Origin: a virus
Virus record (IMG/VR): IMGVR_UViG_3300020056_000007
Length of the DNA stretch: 64,000 bases
Direction: 5' to 3' (one strand)
Shown: positions 187 to 8,675 of the stretch, in pieces
Numbering within the stretch: position 1 is the stretch's first letter
Layout: every line of letters begins with the position of its first letter
The notes under the pieces: generated by a model
The model's input: the letters and a program-made list of their open reading frames with translations, nothing else
Database searches by the model: none
Told to the model about the DNA's origin: nothing
Position numbers and translations under genes: made by a program

Positions 187-227
187 AACAGTGACACTTT
201 TGTTTATATTAAATAAAAAATAAAGTG

Positions 228-256
228 TTTACATTTCTTAAAAGTTTTGATATAAT
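228..256 (+). promoter_or_regulatory. sigma70-like early promoter of tmRNA
   Basis: TTTACA(228-233)-17 bp-TATAAT(251-256), A-rich upstream. Confidence 0.85.
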
Positions 257-317
257 ATATAGTATGGTAGATGTTAGAGGACAGACAGGACTCGGGGGCG
301 GTACCCGACGCCTCCAC

Positions 318-577
318 CATAAATACACTAGGAGTGATTATGCCCGATGATGAAAACAAAAAAATTGTAGAAGTAAAAAACGAACCAAACTCATTTGAGT
401 TAATGTTAAGAGTTTTAGGAAATGAGTTTATTGGAATTAGATTAGCATCAACAAATGCTAGTGGTAAAATGATTTTATGGGCTATATTACTATTATTCTT
501 TACTTTCATGATTATGGAAGTCTTTGGATTCAATCAGTATTTTACTGGAATTGATTATTACGAGTAGTGTATTTATG
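318..577. repeat. perfect 13-bp inverted repeat CATAAATACACTA (318-330) / TAGTGTATTTATG (565-577)
   Basis: Exact reverse complements, adjoining the tmRNA acceptor stem. Confidence 0.95.
340..567 (+). CDS. 75-aa single-TM membrane protein inside the tmRNA intervening segment
   Basis: AGGAG SD at 330-334, ATG 340, TAG 565-567; hydrophobic ILWAILLLFFTFMIMEVFGF. Confidence 0.8.
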   Translation: MPDDENKKIVEVKNEPNSFELMLRVLGNEFIGIRLASTNASGKMILWAILLLFFTFMIMEVFGFNQYFTGIDYYE

Positions 578-742
578 ATGGGGGCGAACTAGGATCGACT
601 GATGTTTGAGTCTACGAAAAATAACTGCAAACGATAACTTTGCACCTTCAGATTACGCTTTAGCGGCATAATGCTGACGGGTTGGGCACTTACCTTGGAA
701 CAGAAAAGTGTCACCATTAATTTAAATCAAAGGAAGAAAAAT

Positions 743-1126: not shown

Positions 1127-1203
1127 TATATAAACTATAGGGTCACTACTTAATAGGTGCGCGGTGGGCCACGGTTAGCCCACCATCATATGCATGGATT
1201 AAT

Positions 1204-2136
1204 ATGAATTATTTTGAATTAAAACCTGAAGAAAACACATTTTCAAATATTGTAATAGATCTTACTCATAGATGTAATATGGAGTGCGCTAATTGTTATA
1301 TCCCAAATAGAGATATTCCAGATCTAAATAAAAATAAACTATATGAGTTTTTATCTAAACTTCCTCATAGAACATATATAAGATTAATTGGTGCTGAACC
1401 AACAATGCGTGATGATTTGCCGGAAATTATATCTACGGTTAAAAAGCTTGGTCATCGCCCAAGTGTAACTACTAATGGATTAAAACTAGCTAGAAGAGAA
1501 TATGTAAAACAACTAAAAAATGCTGGTCTTAGATTATTACTTCATAGTATGAATGGTGCCGATGATGATATGGCATATAAAGAATTGGATAATGGTAATT
1601 GGGCTACAGTTAAAGTAAGAGCATTAGATAATATATTTGCTGAAAGACTACCAATTAATACTGGTACTATTATCGCTCGTGGTGTAAATGAATACATAAT
1701 GAATAGACAAGTAGAAGTGTTTGCTGAAAGAGCAATAAAGTCTGGAATCAATTTTAATACTACTGCTCCATATAATAGAATTACACCAGTTTTAAGAATG
1801 AAATCTGTAGGTGCAATCGGTAGATATATGGAAGGAGTGTCTTATACAATTGATGAATTAATTGAAATGGCAAGTTATAGATTAGGCGTAAATAAATCAG
1901 ATATGATTCAAACATCTGCGGGTGTTGTTAAAGCTGGTCCATCAATGGAGGCTTTAACATCTTGGATGTTTCCATATGAAACAGAAGCTGGTAAAATATT
2001 AATTAGACTTATAGATTGGCAAACTGATGATGATGGTGTTATCGATCATGATAATCCAAATAGAGGTAGACTTACCGAAAATTTTACAGTAGCACCTTTC
2101 TTTGAACATGTTAAAGTAAATGAGAACAATTACTAA
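1204..2136 (+). CDS. radical SAM protein (MoaA-like core)
   Basis: CNMECANC CxxxCxxC, GAEPT, TTNG motifs. Confidence 0.9.
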   Translation: MNYFELKPEENTFSNIVIDLTHRCNMECANCYIPNRDIPDLNKNKLYEFLSKLPHRTYIRLIGAEPTMRDDLPEIISTVKKLGHRPSVTTNGLKLARREYVKQLKNAGLRLLLHSMNGADDDMAYKELDNGNWATVKVRALDNIFAERLPINTGTIIARGVNEYIMNRQVEVFAERAIKSGINFNTTAPYNRITPVLRMKSVGAIGRYMEGVSYTIDELIEMASYRLGVNKSDMIQTSAGVVKAGPSMEALTSWMFPYETEAGKILIRLIDWQTDDDGVIDHDNPNRGRLTENFTVAPFFEHVKVNENNY

Positions 2137-2626
2137 ATACGATAAACTTTGGTTTTATGCTTTAGATCAAATATTTGAAATGATTGAAAGAATACCAGAT
2201 AACGATTATCTTAAAGAAAATTATTCTATAGATAATCTGCAATCTCATACATGGGAAGCAGTATCATACGATAAAAATCAATTTTCTTCTATACTCCATA
2301 GAGATTTATGGGGTAACAATTGTAGAATTTTAAATAGATTCTATAAAACTCCAGAATCTAGATTCGAAAATTCAAAAGGGAAAATGTCTCAAGCTACTTT
2401 AGAAATGATTGATCAGCAATTAAAAGTTGCACATAAATTAGGATTTGATTGTGCATTTATGAGCAGAGAAAAAAATCATCAAGCATTTAGACACTATGTT
2501 AAACATTTACCACAAGATTGGTATATAGAAAATTCACCTTATCAAATGACAGAAACAAGTTGGCAACATTTAATGTGGACACCAATAAATAGTAACATAT
2601 TAATAATGGAGAATCAAAATGGTTAA
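2120..2626 (+). CDS. hypothetical, possible GNAT-fold protein
   Basis: RILNRFY...MIDQQLKVAHKLGFDCAFMSRE pattern; overlaps neighbours in operon. Confidence 0.4.
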   Translation: MRTITKYDKLWFYALDQIFEMIERIPDNDYLKENYSIDNLQSHTWEAVSYDKNQFSSILHRDLWGNNCRILNRFYKTPESRFENSKGKMSQATLEMIDQQLKVAHKLGFDCAFMSREKNHQAFRHYVKHLPQDWYIENSPYQMTETSWQHLMWTPINSNILIMENQNG

Positions 2627-3434
2627 AGTGATAGAAAATATTAATTATTCTATTGATGGCCCAAAAGTGGTAGAATATCTTGGCGATCATCGCACTGTAA
2701 TTATTAAAAATAAACAACCAGTAGAACCTGAAACTCTTATAAGTTTTTATAAAACACTTGGTAATGTTATTCAACAAAATGACAAAGTTACAGGAACTAT
2801 TGCGACAGGTGAATTGGTTAAAGTTAGGCAAAACGGTTTATTTGCTGGTAAAGAAGATGGCGAATTAGAATGGCATTCAGCTGGAATGAATAGAACTGGT
2901 CATGATGATATCGTAGCAATGTATATGCATCAACCCGCTGAGAGTGGAGGTGATACTTATTTTACTGATCATCAAACTGCTTGGAACGATCTTGATGAAG
3001 AAACAAAAAATATATGTCGCAGCGTAAAATCAAAAACAGTTACATATACATCTAAAATGAAATTAGAAAAAATGCACTATAAAAATGTATTTAGTGATGA
3101 ACAAACTATGATGGAATTTAGAGATATAGATGGAAAAACTAGTTTTGAAAAACAAACACCTCGTAAAGATTTAGTTACAAAACATCCTATTAATAATAAA
3201 GAAGGATTATATTATCCATGGAGTGTTATTAGAGGTTTTACTGGTTTAGATCGTGATCAACAACATTCTTTATATTATAAATTAAAAAGCCATACATTAA
3301 AATCAAAGTATGTTTATACGCATAAATGGGATAAATATGATATTGTTTTAAGCGACCAACATCATAGCTTACATAAACGTGATGCATATACCGGTGATCG
3401 TGAATTATGGAGGGCTGGAATATGCTTGAAATAG
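2619..3434 (+). CDS. TauD/TfdA-family 2OG dioxygenase-like
   Basis: EWHSAG, GGDTYFTD, HKWDKYDIVLSDQHHSLHKR, RELWR. Confidence 0.85.
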   Translation: MVKVIENINYSIDGPKVVEYLGDHRTVIIKNKQPVEPETLISFYKTLGNVIQQNDKVTGTIATGELVKVRQNGLFAGKEDGELEWHSAGMNRTGHDDIVAMYMHQPAESGGDTYFTDHQTAWNDLDEETKNICRSVKSKTVTYTSKMKLEKMHYKNVFSDEQTMMEFRDIDGKTSFEKQTPRKDLVTKHPINNKEGLYYPWSVIRGFTGLDRDQQHSLYYKLKSHTLKSKYVYTHKWDKYDIVLSDQHHSLHKRDAYTGDRELWRAGICLK

Positions 3435-4150
3435 AATATAAAGATTATCATAAATTTAATCTTAAAGAAGAAGTATTATCTAATGGAATAGTTTGTATTA
3501 GAAATGCTGAGTTAACTATGCCTGAATTTGAAAAAATTGCTGAATCATTGGGTAAATTACTTAAAACAAATAAGCATGCTATAAATGAAAAAAGAAATAT
3601 TCAAGAATTAAGTAATAATGAATTATTAAGAGATGGAGATGTTGATTGGCATAATGATTGGTCATATGGTAGAGGAAACTATTTTGGAACAATGCTGTAT
3701 AATGTTAAGAATGCACACTTAAGTCCAACTTGGTTTGTTGATACTAGTAAAGTTCCATATTGGTTAAAGCTGCATTACATCGATTGTACAGGATATTATT
3801 GGTTGCCTCAGAAAAATAATGAAGTATATGCGTTTGGTACTGATTCTGAAATTAATAAATGCTTTACAGATAAACAATTAAAAATTTTAGAAAAGTATGT
3901 ACAGAAAAGATCATTTGTAATGGATCATTTTAAAACAAATGAAGAACTTTTATATTGTAGTCTTGGCACAATTCAAAAAATGGATAATGAAAAAGAATTA
4001 GATACATTTAGAGATTATTGTGAAAATAATAATTATAAACATGAATGGCAAGAAGGTGATATATTATTATGGGATAATTTAAAAATGATTCATAAAAGAG
4101 TAGCTTTCGAAGGAGACCGTATTTTATGGAGGACTCAATTTTCAATATAG
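3422..4150 (+). CDS. TauD/TfdA-family 2OG dioxygenase
   Basis: WHND, HEWQEGDILLWDNLKMIHKR, RILWR; start moved to ATG 3422. Confidence 0.9.
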   Translation: MLEIEYKDYHKFNLKEEVLSNGIVCIRNAELTMPEFEKIAESLGKLLKTNKHAINEKRNIQELSNNELLRDGDVDWHNDWSYGRGNYFGTMLYNVKNAHLSPTWFVDTSKVPYWLKLHYIDCTGYYWLPQKNNEVYAFGTDSEINKCFTDKQLKILEKYVQKRSFVMDHFKTNEELLYCSLGTIQKMDNEKELDTFRDYCENNNYKHEWQEGDILLWDNLKMIHKRVAFEGDRILWRTQFSI

Positions 4151-4569
4151 CTGTTATTAGTTTTCCAAGAACTGCTAGTAAATCATTAGCAGAATGGTAT
4201 GGTAGAAAATATAATAAATCAGTTGCTCTTGGATCTTTACATACACCAGAATATCTAGGTGAAAATTTATATGACACTAAAAAAATAGTGAAAGATAAAA
4301 CAGACATATTGCATGGCCATTGGCATTCTCTTCATAAATTAGATACGGAAACTTTAGGTGATTTATTTCTTAATTATAAAATTGTAACATGTTATAGAAA
4401 AGAAGAATTAGTAAGAGCATCTATATTGAGAGTTACAGGAAAAGATTTATTTGATAAAACAATGCACCAAACATTGAGAGAAAAAGGTCGATGGAAAATA
4501 TGGAAAGAACATATAGTTAACGGAGATCAAGTTGAAACTGTTAAAGGAATACCACACGGCTATTGCTAG
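4126..4569 (+). CDS. sulfotransferase-like protein (short)
   Basis: N-terminal SFPRTASKSL resembles the PAPS-binding PSB loop. Confidence 0.5.
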   Translation: MEDSIFNIAVISFPRTASKSLAEWYGRKYNKSVALGSLHTPEYLGENLYDTKKIVKDKTDILHGHWHSLHKLDTETLGDLFLNYKIVTCYRKEELVRASILRVTGKDLFDKTMHQTLREKGRWKIWKEHIVNGDQVETVKGIPHGYC

Positions 4570-5170
4570 TGATTATGTTCTTCAATTAAATTATGAAGAA
4601 TATAATTTAAAGAAATTAGAACAATGTTTTTGGAATAAGTATTCTTATAAAGATCCTACGCCAAAAGGTTGGCATAGTCTTCGTGAATTTGATGATATAA
4701 TTCTTAATTGCTTACCTAAAAAATTAATTCCTTATTTAGTTACTAAAGATTTATTTGTATTATATTTTCATAATAAAAGACCTCCACGTCAACTATCAGA
4801 TGGATTAGAACGAACAGTTATTCATCGTGACGGTGGAGACGTTATGAAATGGTATGCTCAAATTAATTTACCAGTTTATAATTGTAATGAAAATAGTAAG
4901 ACTATATTCTGGGACACAGTTGGAGAATATAAAGATTTACCAGGTTTTAAATCTACTATGCTTAAAGAAGGAAATTTAAAGAAATCAATAGAGTTTGCTA
5001 TGACTGATAAACCAGTATTATTTAATAGTCGTAAATATCATTCAGTTGATTTACCTGATTTAAAGGTTGAAAGAGCATCTTTCACTATTAGATTTAAAGA
5101 AGAATATAGTTGGGAAGATGCTAAAAAATTATGTGGAGAATACATTGAAGATACTACATCAGCACCCTAA
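4532..5170 (+). CDS. 2OG-Fe(II)/cupin oxygenase-like
   Basis: IHRD...QINLP...VLFNSRKYHSV...RASFTIRF. Confidence 0.7.
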   Translation: MKLLKEYHTAIASDYVLQLNYEEYNLKKLEQCFWNKYSYKDPTPKGWHSLREFDDIILNCLPKKLIPYLVTKDLFVLYFHNKRPPRQLSDGLERTVIHRDGGDVMKWYAQINLPVYNCNENSKTIFWDTVGEYKDLPGFKSTMLKEGNLKKSIEFAMTDKPVLFNSRKYHSVDLPDLKVERASFTIRFKEEYSWEDAKKLCGEYIEDTTSAP

Positions 5171-5741
5171 TCATAAATCGCATGATTATGTTGTACCTTT
5201 AAATATTAATATATCAAAAGCAAAAGATGTTTTTTTCAAATATTATAATGAAAAGAAAAAAACATTTTTAAATAGTTTTCCTATGAATGAAGAAGCTTTA
5301 TCTATTTTGCCTGAAGAACTTCATCCATGGATAGAATTAAATCAAATATGGATAGGATATTTTCATAGCAAAAGAAAAACTGGTGCATATATTCCAATTC
5401 ATGTAGATAATCATAGATCAAATGTTAAATATCCATGCAGTATTAATATACCTTTAATTGGATGTTCAGAAAATATTACTACAAGTTTTTGGGAACCAGT
5501 TGGAGAAGTAAGAGGATTAGAAAAACCTAAAGCTGAATGGTATGATTATGGACAATTAAATCATGCATTTGAATTTGCTCTAACAGATACTGCAGTACTA
5601 TATAATAATCAAAAATGGCATAGTGTTTTTAATCCAATGCCTCAAGATCATGAAAGAGCAATTATGATTTTTAAATTTAGTAATGAAGTTCCTCAATGGG
5701 AGGACTGTCGTCAATTAACCCATGCTCTTCACAAAGTTTAA
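5145..5741 (+). CDS. 2OG-Fe(II)/cupin oxygenase-like
   Basis: IHVD...SINIP...WHSV...RAIMIFKF; TTG start after GGAG. Confidence 0.7.
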   Translation: MKILHQHPNHKSHDYVVPLNINISKAKDVFFKYYNEKKKTFLNSFPMNEEALSILPEELHPWIELNQIWIGYFHSKRKTGAYIPIHVDNHRSNVKYPCSINIPLIGCSENITTSFWEPVGEVRGLEKPKAEWYDYGQLNHAFEFALTDTAVLYNNQKWHSVFNPMPQDHERAIMIFKFSNEVPQWEDCRQLTHALHKV

Positions 5742-6294
5742 TTGCATCTTCCCAACTAATTCCTGGTTTAAATCTCCAGCTTAATCCAATTCTTAAATCA
5801 TCACTATTATTGTCTACGCTATGTGGCCATTCAGTTCGAAACAAAACTGCATGATCTTTCATTACAAAGCTTTCTTTAATTACTAAATCAGATTTATTTA
5901 CTATATCTCTTGCTGGTATATTTAAATAGATATATTCTAAATCTCTATTATCTTCAAAATCCCAAAAATGTGTAACTACTCGTTCATCACAATTTTTAAC
6001 GGGTATATTAATTGAAACAGTATATGTATTTTCTGGTGTATTAGCCTGCCCATCAGCATGAATTGGTATATTATATTTTGGAAATACATTTAACACGAGA
6101 ACCACATCTCTTAAATATTCACTAATTGGACCAATTGTAGATATTAATTTTTTAGAAACTGGAATATGGTTATTCCATTTTTTCATTCGTTTTAGTAAAT
6201 CTAAATCAGCATTTTTTAAAAAATTTTCATTAATATATTCATAATAAAAATCTTTAGGAATATGAAATCCCTTGAGAGGAACTATATATTTCAT
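5677..6294 (-). CDS. 2OG-Fe(II)/cupin oxygenase-like
   Basis: IHAD...SINIP...PHSVDN...RIGLSWRF. Confidence 0.7.
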   Translation of the reverse strand: MKYIVPLKGFHIPKDFYYEYINENFLKNADLDLLKRMKKWNNHIPVSKKLISTIGPISEYLRDVVLVLNVFPKYNIPIHADGQANTPENTYTVSINIPVKNCDERVVTHFWDFEDNRDLEYIYLNIPARDIVNKSDLVIKESFVMKDHAVLFRTEWPHSVDNNSDDLRIGLSWRFKPGISWEDAIKLCEEHGLIDDSPPIEELHY

Positions 6295-6745
6295 TTAATT
6301 CTCCAACCGTTTGAGTATAACTCAAACTCAATACAACTCTATTAAATGGACTGAGACTATTATCAACTCGATGAGGTATATCAACTCTCCAACATTTCGC
6401 AGTTTTTAAATCTATTGATTCAATCACTTCATCATTTTTCATATATTGAAACATACTAGTATGATGAACTTTAATTGGTATGTTGATTGCAGTAATTCTT
6501 TGTTTTAATCCAGCTTCTGCAGCTTTATTATCAATATGTGTTTTACACACTGTTTTTGCTGGAACCATAATGATAGATGCATATTCTGGTTTTGGTACAT
6601 TTAAATATGATATTTTGTTTAAGTACTCTTCATTTAATCTAAATGGTCTTATAGACCAGTTTGGCTCTGTAATAACATCGCCGATTTTTAAAATCCATTG
6701 TTTATCATTGGGTTTTAAATTCGTTTTCACTTCAAACCATTTCAT
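6254..6745 (-). CDS. 2OG-Fe(II)/cupin oxygenase-like
   Basis: THID...AINIP...PHRVDN...RVVLSL. Confidence 0.7.
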   Translation of the reverse strand: MKWFEVKTNLKPNDKQWILKIGDVITEPNWSIRPFRLNEEYLNKISYLNVPKPEYASIIMVPAKTVCKTHIDNKAAEAGLKQRITAINIPIKVHHTSMFQYMKNDEVIESIDLKTAKCWRVDIPHRVDNSLSPFNRVVLSLSYTQTVGELNEIYSSSQGISYS

Positions 6746-7196
6746 TAACTAATCCTACAATATGATATCTTAATAATTCTTTTTCTCCATTTAAAGCTGT
6801 ATGTGTTTTAGTTGTATCAACACAATAAGCTCTACCAGCATTTAATCTATAAACTTCATCATTTACTACAAATAAACATTTATCACTTGTAATTAAAGGG
6901 AAATGAATTCTAGGGCTTACATCAGTATGAATAGTATAACATGTTTGAGGATGTAAACACATTAGTCGAGAAGTCGACATATTAAATTTAGCAAAAAGAT
7001 AATTTAAATTTGGTAAATCGAAAGTAGGATCTTTCCCCTTTTGTAAAAAAACATTATTGCTTTTATCAAGGGGCCAATCTTCTTCTATTTTTTTATAACT
7101 GTTAGAAATTTCTGGCGTTAATAAAAATTTTACTTCATTTAAAATTTCATTTAAATTTATTTCACCTAAATCATTCACTATATTCTGTAAAGTCAT
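6732..7196 (-). CDS. Asp/Asn beta-hydroxylase-like 2OG oxygenase
   Basis: RLMCLHPQTCYTIHTD..RIHFPLIT...HTALN...RYHIV. Confidence 0.75.
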   Translation of the reverse strand: MTLQNIVNDLGEINLNEILNEVKFLLTPEISNSYKKIEEDWPLDKSNNVFLQKGKDPTFDLPNLNYLFAKFNMSTSRLMCLHPQTCYTIHTDVSPRIHFPLITSDKCLFVVNDEVYRLNAGRAYCVDTTKTHTALNGEKELLRYHIVGLVNEMV

Positions 7197-7491
7197 ATTC
7201 TATCACTTCATCAACATGAGGTAAAGCTGTTAGTGTTGTTCGAATATCAGTTAAACTCATAATGTTTAAAAACTCATCAGCTTTAGTATCTGTCCATACT
7301 CTTTCAACTGTAAGAGTAAGGTTATCTTCTGATAAACTTGGTGGAATATTATCAACAATATGTCCAGTCATCATACCTTCAGCAACGTATTGTCTTAGAG
7401 CTAAATTAATATTAGTTCCGATTGACGCCATTGCAGCTTCAGCATCAGTTTGTGGATTAGTAAATCTAACTACGTATCGCTGTTGTTTCAT
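7171..7491 (-). CDS. hypothetical protein
   Basis: ORF with GGAG SD inside operon; no enzyme motif. Confidence 0.7.
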   Translation of the reverse strand: MKQQRYVVRFTNPQTDAEAAMASIGTNINLALRQYVAEGMMTGHIVDNIPPSLSEDNLTLTVERVWTDTKADEFLNIMSLTDIRTTLTALPHVDEVIEYDFTEYSE

Positions 7492-7505
7492 TCTTTTTCT
7501 CCATT

Positions 7506-8270
7506 TTATTCTGCAAATTCTAACTGTGTCATTTCAATATGTAAAATATTTTGTTGACCTTTATATTCTTCCCATTCAAATTTACAAGGGTTAATCTTAA
7601 AATCTTCTATGCCATCTATAAGAGTTGATATAATCTCTTTCTTATTATATATGGTAACAAATTCTTCTACATTATCCCAATACGTATTTCCTTCTTTATT
7701 TAATTTTTCATAAAATTGCGTAGACTGTACAATTTGATTATTAACCAAATACATTGCCATTGGATCTCCAAAAGATTCTTTTATAAGACTATCGCATTTT
7801 CCATATTTTTGTAATCTTTTATGTTGAAAATATTGTAACATGGGAATATTATCAAAAGTAACAAATGATAATAATAATTCAATTTTTTCATAGCTTTTTT
7901 TATAACCAATTAATGAATTAATAATATCCATCATATTTTCTAAAGTAGTATGTGAAAATACACTATAAGCAACTATTCCTTTAATGAAGTATTTCTTTGG
8001 TAATACTGGTGGAAGATCAGCGCCATTTTTATTATATACGGGATTGTACATATTGAACCATGTAAACTCATAATCTGGAAAATTTTCTCTAGCTTTGTGA
8101 ATATTATTAATATCTACATCAATTCCCAAGTAATTACTTGGATCTATTTTAAAGCTCCTAAGTAAATTACCAGTACCACAGCCATAGTCTATGATTTTTT
8201 CTTCAGGTTTACAAGAAGAAATCATTTTCTTTAAGGCATTACTTTTGATTTTGTACTTTTCTGTATGCAT
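7506..8270 (-). CDS. class I SAM-dependent methyltransferase
   Basis: IIDYGCGTG, YLGIDVD, AYSVFSH. Confidence 0.9.
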   Translation of the reverse strand: MHTEKYKIKSNALKKMISSCKPEEKIIDYGCGTGNLLRSFKIDPSNYLGIDVDINNIHKARENFPDYEFTWFNMYNPVYNKNGADLPPVLPKKYFIKGIVAYSVFSHTTLENMMDIINSLIGYKKSYEKIELLLSFVTFDNIPMLQYFQHKRLQKYGKCDSLIKESFGDPMAMYLVNNQIVQSTQFYEKLNKEGNTYWDNVEEFVTIYNKKEIISTLIDGIEDFKINPCKFEWEEYKGQQNILHIEMTQLEFAE

Positions 8271-8275
8271 GTTTA

Positions 8276-8283
8276 TATTTATA
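8276..8283 (-). promoter_or_regulatory. late promoter TATAAATA driving the methyltransferase/oxygenase operon
   Basis: tatttata 5 nt from ATG 8270. Confidence 0.65.
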
Positions 8284-8396: not shown

Positions 8397-8675
8397 ATGG
8401 CACTTACAACTAAACAATTTAGCGAAATCCAAGTTCTTTTTGCTAAAGCTTCTATATCAGATTTTAATCAAATAGCTGATATGTTTAATACAACCCGTAG
8501 AATGGCTGAACGCTCAATCAAACAGAATTTTAATGTTGGTCAAAAGGTTCAGTGGACTGGTCGTAAAGGTTTTCAAACCGGTACGATTACCAAAATTAAC
8601 CGTAAAAACATTGTAGTTGATGCCGGTCAAAACGGCATGTGGAATGTTGCACCTTCACTTTTATCAGCGGCTTAA
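8397..8675 (+). CDS. early hypothetical protein (SH3-like C-terminus)
   Basis: GAGGAG SD; follows early promoter. Confidence 0.8.
   Translation: MALTTKQFSEIQVLFAKASISDFNQIADMFNTTRRMAERSIKQNFNVGQKVQWTGRKGFQTGTITKINRKNIVVDAGQNGMWNVAPSLLSAA

What the first reader, a model, noticed from the sequence alone, without database searches (positions are those of the whole stretch)
1204..8283. Convergent 11-gene tailoring-enzyme island resembling a biosynthetic cluster in a phage
Seen: + operon (radical SAM, GNAT-like, TauD x2, sulfotransferase-like, 2 oxygenases) meets a - operon (methyltransferase, one motif-less 106-aa protein, 3 oxygenases); nearly all genes overlap their neighbours. The - operon starts 5 nt from a perfect TATAAATA. 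Established: marine T4-like phages often carry 2OG-Fe(II) oxygenases of unknown substrate. Inference: late timing points to chemical decoration of virion proteins or glycans (hydroxylation, sulfation, methylation) rather than replication-coupled DNA modification; the 7171-7491 protein is a candidate substrate or scaffold. The first TauD has HSA in place of HxD and may be a catalytically altered partner of the second.
Basis: partly seen in the sequence, partly recalled or inferred. Interest (0 to 1): 0.7.

Follow-up and report, generated by a model that had tools for sequence, protein, structure and literature searches.

The report
Phage oxidative tailoring-enzyme gene island
An uncultured marine T4-like phage carries an optional 7-kb block of twelve tightly packed genes, and the core of this block also occurs in other phages and in some bacteria, often beside fatty-acid enzymes, so it most likely reshapes a lipid-like or other small host metabolite rather than decorating the virus particle, though its product is unknown.

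Summary
Positions 1204-8283 carry 12 real genes (not 11) in two convergent arms, and 10 of 11 junctions overlap.

**Gene content**
- One radical SAM enzyme.
- One GNAT-fold protein.
- Two TauD enzymes. The first has an invariant HxA in place of HxD.
- One sulfotransferase-like P-loop protein.
- Five small AspH-like HxD..H..R cupins.
- One 106-aa protein with a compact ferredoxin/ABM-like fold.
- One methyltransferase.

**What the interpretation gets right and wrong**
- The core order (radical SAM, GNAT, TauD, TauD) is syntenic in about 20 viral contigs.
- Late timing is supported at best for the minus arm. In three relatives the plus arm follows consensus sigma-70 (early-type) promoters.
- The 106-aa protein looks like a folded small enzyme or binder, not a substrate peptide.

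**Wider context**
- The radical SAM's closest solved relative is a lipid-tail-coupling enzyme.
- Across phages and bacterial chromosomes it recurs next to TauD or DesA-like desaturases, AspH-like hydroxylases, GNAT proteins and acyl carrier proteins.
- The island is accessory. Only 1 of 30 anchored relatives has the radical SAM, and the nearest relative holds a different cassette in the same slot.

**Best reading (about 0.4):** a small-molecule, probably acyl or lipid, tailoring pathway. The scan has noted similar islands in other phage genomes.

The parts
1163..1184 (+). G+C-rich hairpin just upstream of the first gene. It looks like a terminator or a PeSL-like stem-loop.
   Evidence: The fold gives a 7-bp stem. 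The same hairpin, with compensatory stem changes, a conserved loop and a T-run, precedes the radical SAM gene in L001, L002, L007 and L021. It is unique in the window.
1204..2136 (+). o01, a radical SAM enzyme of 310 aa with a CxxxCxxC motif and only 3 Cys, so a single cluster.
   Evidence: PF04055, 55 bits. The best NCBIfam hits are TrsS, Tes and MoaA, all far below their cut-offs. A profile search gives GDGT-MAS 7TOL at E 3e-25 as the closest solved structure, then MoaA. There are 103 viral relatives.
2120..2626 (+). o02, a 168-aa GNAT-fold protein from an orphan family.
   Evidence: No Pfam, PHROG or PDB sequence hit. The AF2 model has pLDDT 91.6. GNAT matches: Foldseek E 3e-6, and Z 10.4 with 317 chains at Z>=8. 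The family is found in 33 of 58 distinct radical SAM loci. All 43 database relatives are unnamed metagenomic proteins.
2619..3434 (+). o03, a TauD/TfdA-family Fe/2OG enzyme whose metal motif is H86-S-A88 (no carboxylate). H252, R261 and R265 are retained.
   Evidence: PF02668, 103 bits. WHSA aligns to the WHTD of RdpA. H, A, the distal H and both R are invariant in 13 orthologues of 51-81% identity. In the wider clade the position is N in 64, D in 46 and A in 13 of 133 aligned sequences (131 library hits plus o03 and o04).
3407..4150 (+). o04, a canonical TauD-family Fe/2OG dioxygenase (HND...H...R...R).
   Evidence: PF02668, 79 bits. The motifs are invariant in 24 sequences, down to 30% identity. 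This is the most constant TauD partner of the radical SAM, also in bacteria.
4126..4569 (+). o05, a 147-aa P-loop-fold, sulfotransferase-like protein.
   Evidence: Invariant NIAVISFPR..S, LHGHWH and R91-x7-S99. Atlas structure neighbours are shikimate kinases (TM 0.62-0.67) and a Sulfotransfer_5 cluster (TM 0.70). Atlas feature neighbours include Sulfotransfer_1 clusters at 0.90-0.91. No Pfam or PDB sequence hit.
4532..5170 (+). o06, a small AspH-like cupin Fe/2OG oxygenase with a TTG start.
   Evidence: No Pfam hit. It aligns with o07-o10 and their orthologues with invariant H-x-D, I..P, H and R. The family profile weakly matches the beta-hydroxylase Cpz10, 7V4F, at E 5.6e-4.
5067..5741 (+). 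o07, a small AspH-like cupin and paralogue of o06 and o08. The start is TTG at 5067 or ATG at 5118.
   Evidence: The orthologue in L089 is 59% identical.
5677..6294 (-). o08, a small AspH-like cupin. Its 3' end overlaps o07 by 65 nt, convergently.
   Evidence: Orthologues are 47-54% identical.
6254..6745 (-). o09, a small cupin Fe/2OG oxygenase of a second subfamily.
   Evidence: One search shows the HxD..H..R motif. Orthologues in 9-11 loci are 45-64% identical.
6732..7196 (-). o10, an AspH-family (PF05118) cupin oxygenase.
   Evidence: PF05118, 38.4 bits against a cut-off of 22.6. This cluster is found in 21 of 58 radical SAM loci.
7171..7491 (-). o11, a 106-aa acidic protein with a compact beta-alpha-beta-beta-alpha-beta (ferredoxin/ABM-like) fold.
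   Evidence: No family hit. Five orthologues are 30-37% identical. The AF2 model has pLDDT 93.0. The best matches are ABM monooxygenases: TM about 0.55 at E 2.6e-3, and Z 7.4 to ActVA-Orf6. There is a weak profile link to a 94-107-aa family in distant loci (hhalign probability 23%).
7506..8270 (-). o12, a class-I SAM-dependent methyltransferase and the first gene of the minus arm.
   Evidence: Several Methyltransf_* hits near threshold over the DYGCGTGN motif. It is found in only one island relative (L082, 36%).
8276..8283 (-). TATAAATA box 5 nt upstream of the o12 ATG, a candidate late promoter.
   Evidence: Comparable boxes lie upstream of the minus arm in L083 (25 nt, followed by GGAG), in L081, and with one mismatch in L082. 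The motif count in the window is at chance level.

Best explanation
The island is an accessory, horizontally exchanged metabolic cassette. It most likely makes or remodels a small molecule in the infected cell, probably one with an acyl or lipid-like chain or an N-acylated amino compound. It is less likely to decorate virion proteins or DNA.

**Proposed logic**
- Shown: the families, folds and motifs of the enzymes.
- Inferred: every catalytic step and the substrate.
- The single-cluster radical SAM enzyme o01 activates an unreactive C-H bond. Its closest solved relative, GDGT-MAS, does this on lipid tails.
- The GNAT-fold o02 transfers an acyl group.
- The canonical TauD o04 and the five small AspH-like cupins add hydroxyl groups.
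- The carboxylate-less TauD o03 (HxA) performs altered chemistry. It may take an anion or a substrate ligand at the open iron site, and halogenation is the known precedent.
- The sulfotransferase-like o05 esterifies a new hydroxyl, and o12 methylates.
- The ABM-like o11 acts as a small oxidase, isomerase or binder.

**Timing.** The plus (core) arm is probably transcribed early from sigma-70-type promoters. The minus arm may be transcribed late.
For: **Linkage**
- The core order is conserved in about 20 contigs, down to 50% radical SAM identity, with overlapping reading frames.

**Guilt by association over 58 distinct viral radical SAM loci**
- GNAT-like o02 family in 33 loci.
- TauD in 25.
- DesA-like FA_desaturase in 23.
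- AspH-like cupins in 21, 17 and 9 (three clusters).
- PP-binding acyl carrier proteins with the DSLD motif in 11.
- B12 radical SAM methylase-like genes in 7.

**Bacterial chromosomes**
- Bdellovibrionota: desaturase, radical SAM, AspH.
- Geminicoccaceae: ABC exporter, radical SAM, TauD.
- Sedimenticolaceae: radical SAM, haem-oxygenase-like di-iron oxidase, MBOAT.
- A 1.9-Mb contig: TauD, TauD(HxN), radical SAM, TauD, TauD.
- A module shared with cells cannot be specific to virions.

**Other support**
- The closest solved radical SAM is the lipid-coupling GDGT-MAS (E 3e-25).
- The island is dispensable. One of 30 DUF932-anchored relatives has the radical SAM.
- The nearest relative carries another tailoring cassette in the same slot: AMP-binding, PhyH, NTP-transferase, M6P-isomerase/cytidylyltransferase, methyltransferase.
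- Catalytic motifs are invariant across orthologues, so the genes are under selection.
Against: - No substrate is identified, and nothing here is biochemical.
- This window has no acyl carrier protein or desaturase. tblastn with those families was negative over the 64 kb. The lipid link is therefore by association through the radical SAM family only.
- o01 lacks the auxiliary clusters of GDGT-MAS and scores far below every curated family cut-off.
- TauD and small AspH-like enzymes also act on amino acids, nucleoside antibiotics (Cpz10) and proteins.
- The GNAT and P-loop assignments say nothing about the substrate.
- Pelagiphage Mosig has an analogous island next to tail-fibre genes, which keeps a virion role possible.
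- A PAPS source for a sulfotransferase was not looked for.
Confidence: 0.4

Rival explanations
1. One reading: a late-expressed enzyme set that hydroxylates, sulfates or methylates virion proteins or glycans, with the 106-aa protein as substrate or scaffold.
For: - TATAAATA lies directly upstream of the minus arm here and in L083, L081 and (one mismatch) L082.
- The AspH family includes protein hydroxylases.
- The Mosig island abuts tail-fibre genes.
Against: - The plus arm has consensus sigma-70 promoters in L008, L015 and L016.
- The box count is at chance level.
- Here the island lies between a tmRNA gene and DUF932, not among structural genes.
- The same module occurs in bacterial chromosomes and with ACP and desaturase genes.
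- o11 is a compact folded domain.
- The island is missing from most close relatives, which presumably build similar virions.
Confidence: 0.12
2. A RiPP-like peptide maturation cluster: the radical SAM, hydroxylases and methyltransferase modify a ribosomal precursor peptide.
For: - Radical SAM plus Fe/2OG hydroxylases plus a methyltransferase is a known RiPP enzyme set (for example proteusins; from general knowledge).
- An ABC exporter sits next to the pair in Geminicoccaceae.
- Relatives carry SPASM and twitch radical SAM genes nearby.
Against: - o01 has no SPASM, twitch or RRE domain and only 3 Cys.
- The genes overlap, so there is no room for a small precursor ORF.
- The only small protein, o11, is a well-folded alpha+beta domain with no leader/core pattern.
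- The acyl carrier protein and desaturase partners do not fit a peptide substrate.
Confidence: 0.1
3. Not one pathway: a hyperplastic-region pile of independent auxiliary genes (2OG oxygenases for repair or nutrient scavenging, and others) that only travel together.
For: - Marine T4-like phages are known to hold many 2OG-Fe(II) oxygenase genes in hyperplastic regions (PMC3037559, listed).
- The cupin complement, o11 and o12 vary among relatives.
- The slot holds a different cassette in L124.
Against: - The order radical SAM, GNAT, TauD, TauD is kept at 50-88% radical SAM identity.
- The radical SAM plus oxidase pairing holds across phages and three bacterial lineages.
- The reading frames overlap, as in operons with translational coupling.
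Confidence: 0.15
4. Post-replicative DNA or nucleotide hypermodification.
For: Phage thymidine hypermodification pathways use radical SAM, acyl and aminotransferase-type enzymes (from general knowledge). The context is a phage genome.
Against: - No kinase, glycosylase, DNA-binding or dNMP-modifying gene lies in or next to the island.
- The island is present or absent among close relatives.
- Cellular homologues sit with lipid-type partners.
Confidence: 0.06

Closest known systems
Tailoring-enzyme island of Pelagibacter phage Mosig EXVC030M (MT647606, genes 72-84), and the 2OG-Fe(II) oxygenase-rich hyperplastic regions of marine T4-like cyanophages
   Same: Both lie in marine T4-like myophages. 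The Mosig block holds two MoaA-like radical SAM genes, two Asp_Arg_Hydrox genes, TauD, a methylase, an N-acetyltransferase and FA_desaturase, as annotated. Function is unknown in both.
   Different: Only the TauD is detectably similar (28% identity). The window's radical SAM has no tblastn match in 50,697 phage records. The window's island adds the HxA/HxD TauD pair, the P-loop protein and five cupin paralogues, and it is not next to tail-fibre genes.
GDGT-MAS / Tes tetraether lipid synthase (PDB 7TOL; NCBIfam NF045702)
   Same: It is the closest solved relative of the o01 family (E 3e-25 over the radical SAM core). Both are radical SAM enzymes, and this one works on unactivated lipid C-H bonds.
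   Different: o01 is 310 aa against 526 aa. It has three cysteines and therefore no auxiliary clusters. It scores 62.7 bits against a family cut-off of 450. It is not a member.
Fe(II)/2OG halogenases (SyrB2, WelO5 and BesD types)
   Same: o03 has the defining loss of the metal-binding carboxylate (HxA) while keeping both His residues and the 2OG-binding Arg residues. These are invariant in its clade.
   Different: o03 belongs to the TauD/TfdA family. Its nearest solved relatives are hydroxylases (RdpA/SdpA, TfdA, CarC). No halogenase appeared among the sequence matches. The sister clade carries Asn at this position, which is not a halogenase signature. Activity is untested.
Cyanophage-encoded lipid desaturases (Roitman et al., ISME J 2018, PMC5776448)
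   Same: They are a precedent for phage genes that remodel host membrane lipids. DesA-like desaturases are the commonest alternative partner of this radical SAM family.
   Different: That paper does not contain the terms radical SAM, acyl carrier, synteny, neighbor or adjacent. The window itself has no desaturase.
Cpz10-type small AspH-like beta-hydroxylases of nucleoside antibiotic pathways (PDB 7V4F; PMC9814697)
   Same: They are about 180-aa cupin Fe/2OG enzymes that act on a small molecule. This is the best solved match of the o06-o10 profile.
   Different: The match is weak (E 5.6e-4), and no other caprazamycin pathway genes are present.

Membership tests
TauD/TfdA Fe(II)/2OG dioxygenases (PF02668) | Profile score above the curated threshold | tested here: met
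   o03 scores 103 bits and o04 79.1 bits, against a cut-off of 27.
TauD/TfdA Fe(II)/2OG dioxygenases (PF02668) | 2-His-1-carboxylate facial triad (HxD/E...H) | tested here: not met
   This applies to o03: H86-S-A88...H252, with Ala invariant in 13 orthologues. o04 meets the feature, with HND...H invariant in 24 sequences.
Fe(II)/2OG halogenases | Carboxylate ligand replaced by Ala or Gly, with both His residues and the 2OG-binding Arg kept | tested here: met
Fe(II)/2OG halogenases | Sequence or clade relationship to a proven halogenase | tested here: inconclusive
   The PDB sequence search returned only hydroxylase-type TauD/TfdA/CarC chains. The related clade mostly has Asn at this position. 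No structural comparison of o03 was made.
Fe(II)/2OG halogenases | Halide-dependent C-H halogenation | not testable with these tools
   This needs an enzyme assay.
Radical SAM superfamily (PF04055) | CxxxCxxC cluster motif and profile score | tested here: met
   CNMECANC at residues 24-31. The score is 55 bits against a cut-off of 29.5.
Tes / GDGT-MAS tetraether lipid synthase | Curated family score and additional Fe-S clusters | tested here: not met
   62.7 bits against a cut-off of 450. The protein has only three Cys.
GNAT acyltransferase superfamily | GNAT fold | tested here: met
   Model pLDDT 91.6. Foldseek E 3e-6 and Z up to 10.4, with 317 chains at Z>=8.
GNAT acyltransferase superfamily | Acyl-CoA pyrophosphate-binding motif (Q/R-x-x-G-x-G/A) | tested here: inconclusive
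   The motif is not evident in alignment A2. The conserved basic residues R69, R73, K76 and R81 lie in the corresponding region. There is no Pfam hit.
Sulfotransferases | 5'-PSB loop, catalytic His and 3'-PB R-x7-S in order, plus a profile hit | tested here: inconclusive
   Motif-like invariants are PR..S at 14-18, HGHWH at 63-67 and R91/S99. Atlas neighbours include sulfotransferase clusters but also shikimate kinases. There is no Pfam or PDB hit. The protein is half the usual length.
Asp/Asn beta-hydroxylase-like cupins (PF05118) | Profile score, and the HxD...H plus Arg motifs | tested here: met
   o10 scores 38.4 bits against a cut-off of 22.6. o06-o09 have no Pfam hit but share the invariant H, D, H and R columns with o10.
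RiPP biosynthetic cluster | Precursor peptide gene and a peptide-recognising maturase (RRE or SPASM) | tested here: not met
   There is no room for a small ORF. o11 is a folded domain. o01 lacks SPASM and RRE.
T4-type late transcription unit | TATAAATA at about -10 with a leader and ribosome-binding site before the gene | tested here: inconclusive
   The box is present but only 5 nt from the ATG, and the motif is not enriched in the window. L083 has the canonical spacing. The plus arm shows sigma-70-type promoters in relatives.
ABM / dimeric alpha+beta barrel proteins (for o11) | Ferredoxin-like beta-alpha-beta-beta-alpha-beta fold matching ABM members | tested here: inconclusive
   The top matches are ABM proteins, but at middling scores: TM 0.52-0.55 at E 2.6e-3, and Z 7.4.

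The most novel reading that the evidence does not exclude
The island encodes a phage-borne pathway to a hydroxylated, halogenated and sulfated acyl or lipid-like metabolite, reminiscent of chlorosulfolipid chemistry. In this reading the invariant-HxA o03 would be, as far as I know, the first Fe/2OG halogenase of the TauD/TfdA family and the first in a virus. It would work beside its HxD hydroxylase paralogue, a lipid-synthase-like radical SAM enzyme and a minimal sulfotransferase.
Probability: 0.08. Interest if true: 0.9.

Novelty: new variant of a known kind. Interest (0 to 1): 0.58.

Why it matters
- Marine T4-like phages are among the most abundant viruses, and their many 2OG-oxygenase genes have had no assigned substrate for over a decade.
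- This analysis turns one such pile of genes into a defined, testable module. It is a conserved radical SAM plus non-heme-iron oxidase core with a GNAT-fold protein. The core is shared with bacteria and repeatedly linked to acyl carrier proteins and desaturases.
- If the product is a modified lipid or metabolite, phages would be shown to carry multi-step specialised-metabolite pathways, not only single auxiliary genes.
- The conserved HxA and HxN TauD clades next to radical SAM genes are also candidates for new iron-enzyme chemistry.

Tried and rejected
**Searches that found nothing**
- DNA searches of the island and of 14 kb of the neighbouring genome against 50,697 phage records found nothing.
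- tblastn of the radical SAM against the same records found nothing.
- PHROGs gave only generic radical SAM hits and nothing for nine other proteins.
- Profile searches of o02, o05 and the unknown 205-aa family (cluster 12) against PDB sequences found nothing useful.
- A database search with the o02 profile returned only unnamed metagenomic proteins, with no Pfam domain or name among hits of 90-371 residues. Longer, fused forms were not searched.
- tblastn of the partner families (ACP, desaturase, B12 radical SAM and others) against the window gave one weak hit to an unannotated family and none to ACP or desaturase. The window itself lacks them.
- Literature searches found no description of this module.

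**Ideas tested and dropped**
- o02 is not related to cluster 12 (hhalign probability 0.2%).
- The link between o11 and the small cluster-10 proteins is only weak (probability 23%).
- A riboswitch upstream of the radical SAM gene: Rfam found only the tmRNA.
- o11 as an acyl carrier protein: rejected, because there is no invariant Ser and the fold is different.

- No whole genome is held for this window, so PAPS-synthesis, ACP or desaturase genes elsewhere in the phage could not be sought.

Full report
**What the window is.** The 64-kb window is part of an uncultured marine T4-like myophage.
- It encodes a gp6-type baseplate wedge protein that is 42% identical to Phage C48C1 and about 33% identical to OM43 phage Melnitz and pelagiphage HTVC008M.
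- It also encodes ribonucleotide reductase, tail and NAD-salvage-type genes, three tRNAs and a permuted tmRNA.
- No DNA-level relative exists among 50,697 deposited phage genomes.

**Check of the observation.** There are twelve, not eleven.
- On the + strand: o01 1204-2136, o02 2120-2626, o03 2619-3434, o04 3407-4150, o05 4126-4569, o06 4532-5170 and o07 5067/5118-5741.
- On the - strand: o12 7506-8270, o11 7171-7491, o10 6732-7196, o09 6254-6745 and o08 5677-6294.
- Ten of eleven junctions overlap. The two arms overlap convergently by 65 nt.
- G+C falls to 0.24-0.33 inside the island, against 0.32-0.44 to its right.

**Pfam results.**
- Confirmed: radical SAM (o01), two TauD proteins (o03, o04), Asp_Arg_Hydrox (o10) and a class-I methyltransferase (o12).
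- o06-o09 have no Pfam hit. With their orthologues they align to o10 with invariant H-x-D, a distal H and an R, which are the Fe(II)/2OG motifs. The island therefore holds five small AspH-like cupins in three subfamilies.
- Their profile weakly matches the small-molecule beta-hydroxylase Cpz10 (E 5.6e-4).

**The three proteins without a family.**
- *o02.* The model is confident (pLDDT 91.6) and has a GNAT fold: Foldseek E 3e-6, Z up to 10.4, and 317 chains at Z>=8. The classical CoA-binding motif is not evident. All 43 database relatives are unnamed metagenomic proteins.
- *o05.* It has invariant PR..S, HGHWH and R-x7-S elements, in the order of the sulfotransferase PAPS-binding and catalytic motifs (the comparison with SULT motifs rests on general knowledge). 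Its Atlas neighbours are P-loop kinases and sulfotransferase clusters. I call it sulfotransferase-like but unproven.
Its best matches are antibiotic-biosynthesis-monooxygenase (ABM) proteins, at middling scores: TM about 0.55, and Z 7.4 to ActVA-Orf6. This is a globular small protein, not a precursor-like peptide.

**The HSA motif.**
- In o03, WHSA aligns with the WHTD metal motif of RdpA, and the distal His aligns too.
- H86, A88, H252, R261 and R265 are invariant in 13 orthologues of 51-81% identity.
- o04 keeps HND...H...R...R in 24 sequences, down to 30% identity.
- A profile search of 1.84 billion representatives found 1630 relatives. I aligned 131 of the best 150 hits together with o03 and o04 (133 sequences), and the carboxylate position is N in 64, D in 46, A in 13, E in 3, G in 2, H in 2 and C in 1.
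- The nearest clade is HxA (one member has HxC). An HxA member sits in another T4-like phage with no adjacent radical SAM gene; a distant SPASM-type radical SAM lies about 6 kb away.
- HxN members lie in bacterial chromosomes beside radical SAM genes.
- Loss of the carboxylate is therefore old and clade-specific while the rest of the site is kept. This argues for altered catalysis rather than decay.
- HxA is the halogenase signature, but o03's solved relatives are hydroxylases, and the Asn clade does not fit that signature. Halogenation is possible but unproven.

**Co-occurrence.**
- The radical SAM has 103 relatives in IMG/VR.
- In about 20 contigs (50-88% radical SAM identity, including 146-375-kb contigs) the order radical SAM, o02, o03, o04 is kept. 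It is usually followed by o05 and cupins that converge on a minus arm containing o09, o10 and o11. The core does not assort independently.
- The cupin number, o11 and especially o12 vary. Relatives add further radical SAM, SPASM, SDR-like and aminotransferase-like genes.

**Partners of the radical SAM family.** I clustered all neighbours within 5 kb of 58 distinct radical SAM genes. The recurring partners are:
- the o02 family, in 33 loci;
- TauD, in 25;
- a short DesA-like FA_desaturase, in 23;
- AspH-like cupins, in 21, 17 and 9 loci (three clusters);
- acyl carrier proteins with the DSLD motif, in 11;
- a 94-107-aa protein family, in 9;
- KedN5-like B12 radical SAM genes, in 7.

**Bacterial homologues.** A scan of one genome per prokaryotic species found 27 loci. 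The neighbourhoods are shown.
- In Bdellovibrionota chromosomes the order is desaturase, radical SAM, AspH.
- In Geminicoccaceae it is ABC exporter, radical SAM, o04-type TauD.
- In a Sedimenticolaceae genome it is radical SAM, haem-oxygenase-like di-iron oxidase, MBOAT.
- A 1.9-Mb contig has two o03-type TauD genes (one HxN), a radical SAM that is 46% identical, and two o04-type TauD genes.
- The gene is sporadic in bacteria: 2 of 151 genomes sampled from the phylum of the Bacteriovoracaceae hit.
- The closest solved structure of the radical SAM family is the tetraether lipid synthase GDGT-MAS (E 3e-25), ahead of MoaA. However, o01 has a single cluster and fails every curated family threshold.

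**The island is dispensable.**
- Eighty relatives were anchored on the downstream DUF932 gene (72-83% identical). Thirty of them have at least 8 kb of upstream sequence, and only one of those has a radical SAM of this family.
- The nearest relative, L124, is 78-84% identical in DNA from position 8673 onward but unrelated upstream.
- In the same slot L124 carries a different cassette: AspH-like, NTP-transferase, AMP-binding enzyme, PhyH dioxygenase, mannose-6-phosphate isomerase/cytidylyltransferase and a methyltransferase.
- No long direct repeats flank the island here.

**Timing.**
- TATAAATA lies 5 nt before the o12 ATG. That leaves no leader, and the motif is at chance frequency in the window (14 against 13.0).
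- Late-type boxes do recur upstream of the minus arm in relatives: L083 (25 nt, then GGAG), L081, and L082 with one mismatch.
- In L008, L015 and L016 the radical SAM gene is directly preceded by TTGACA-, TTGACT- or TTTACA-17-TATAAT. This is the early promoter type of T4-like phages (established knowledge).
- In the window and four relatives a conserved G+C-rich hairpin with compensatory changes lies there instead.
- So the core arm is probably early or read through from upstream. Only the minus arm is plausibly late.

**Interpretation.** The evidence fits an accessory, exchangeable metabolic cassette that acts on a small molecule.
- The repeated company of acyl carrier proteins, desaturase-like enzymes, MBOAT or GNAT acyltransferases and a lipid-synthase-like radical SAM points to an acyl or lipid-like substrate.
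- I put this at about 0.4. The window itself has no ACP or desaturase, and every catalytic step is inferred.
- The rivals are virion decoration (0.12), a RiPP-like pathway (0.10), an unlinked pile of auxiliary genes (0.15) and DNA modification (0.06).

**Comparison with what is known.**
- The nearest described things are the annotated but unstudied enzyme island of pelagiphage Mosig and the oxygenase-rich hyperplastic regions of cyanomyophages (PMC3037559).
- Cyanophage lipid desaturases are a precedent for lipid remodelling, but the paper that describes them does not contain the terms radical SAM, acyl carrier, synteny, neighbor or adjacent.
- I found no paper that describes this module.
- Earlier notes of this scan report similar islands in other phage genomes. 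One is a repeat-flanked cassette that is present or absent among near-identical relatives. Another is a TauD plus radical SAM pair inserted as an add-on in giant phages. My presence/absence and jumbo-contig results agree with those notes.
- I class the island as a new variant of a known kind. It is real and well defined, but its product is unknown.

Noticed in passing
window 1127-1203; also L001, L002, L007 and L021 upstream of the radical SAM gene: A conserved G+C-rich hairpin precedes the radical SAM gene. Its loop is CACGGTTA, the stem shows compensatory changes, and relatives add a T-run. In L021 a TGGTATAAT box lies upstream of it. It may be a terminator of the upstream unit or a promoter-early stem-loop (PeSL)-like junction.
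   Followed up: partly
L081, L007, L084, L008 and L089, at the C-termini of the o03 orthologues: Some orthologues of the HxA TauD carry a 15-40-aa C-terminal extension ending in a conserved W-(T/S)-C-(E/A)-S-L motif. The window's copy lacks it.
   Followed up: no
window 4532-5170 and 5067-5741: o06 has no in-frame ATG before residue 104, so it probably starts at TTG inside o05. o07 overlaps o06 by 53-104 nt, depending on the start codon. These are unusually long same-strand overlaps.
   Followed up: no
L121 (2.2-Mb bacterial contig) and L123 (1.9-Mb contig): A large clade of TauD-family proteins has Asn in place of the metal-binding Asp (WH-x-N-G). They are encoded in bacterial chromosomes next to radical SAM or B12 radical SAM genes. 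I know of no described Fe/2OG subfamily with this motif.
   Followed up: partly
L124 1-9990: The closest relative has a different tailoring cassette in the same slot upstream of DUF932: AspH-like, NTP-transferase, AMP-binding enzyme, PhyH dioxygenase, mannose-6-P isomerase/cytidylyltransferase and a methyltransferase.
   Followed up: partly
window 224-715 and 671-1126: A permuted alphaproteobacterial-type tmRNA gene lies immediately upstream (Rfam RF01849 at 60 bits, RF04321 at 67 bits). A 151-aa ORF with a weak outer-membrane beta-barrel hit sits between it and the island. In L003 the tmRNA tag region directly abuts the radical SAM gene, and in L087 a tRNA does.
   Followed up: no
L048, L050, L057, L058, L061, L068, L072 and L073: In distant radical SAM loci, an unannotated family of about 205 aa (conserved YYKFW...HNIRN...KYS...RY) always accompanies the phage acyl carrier protein and desaturase-like gene. 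It has no Pfam, NCBIfam or PDB match.
   Followed up: partly
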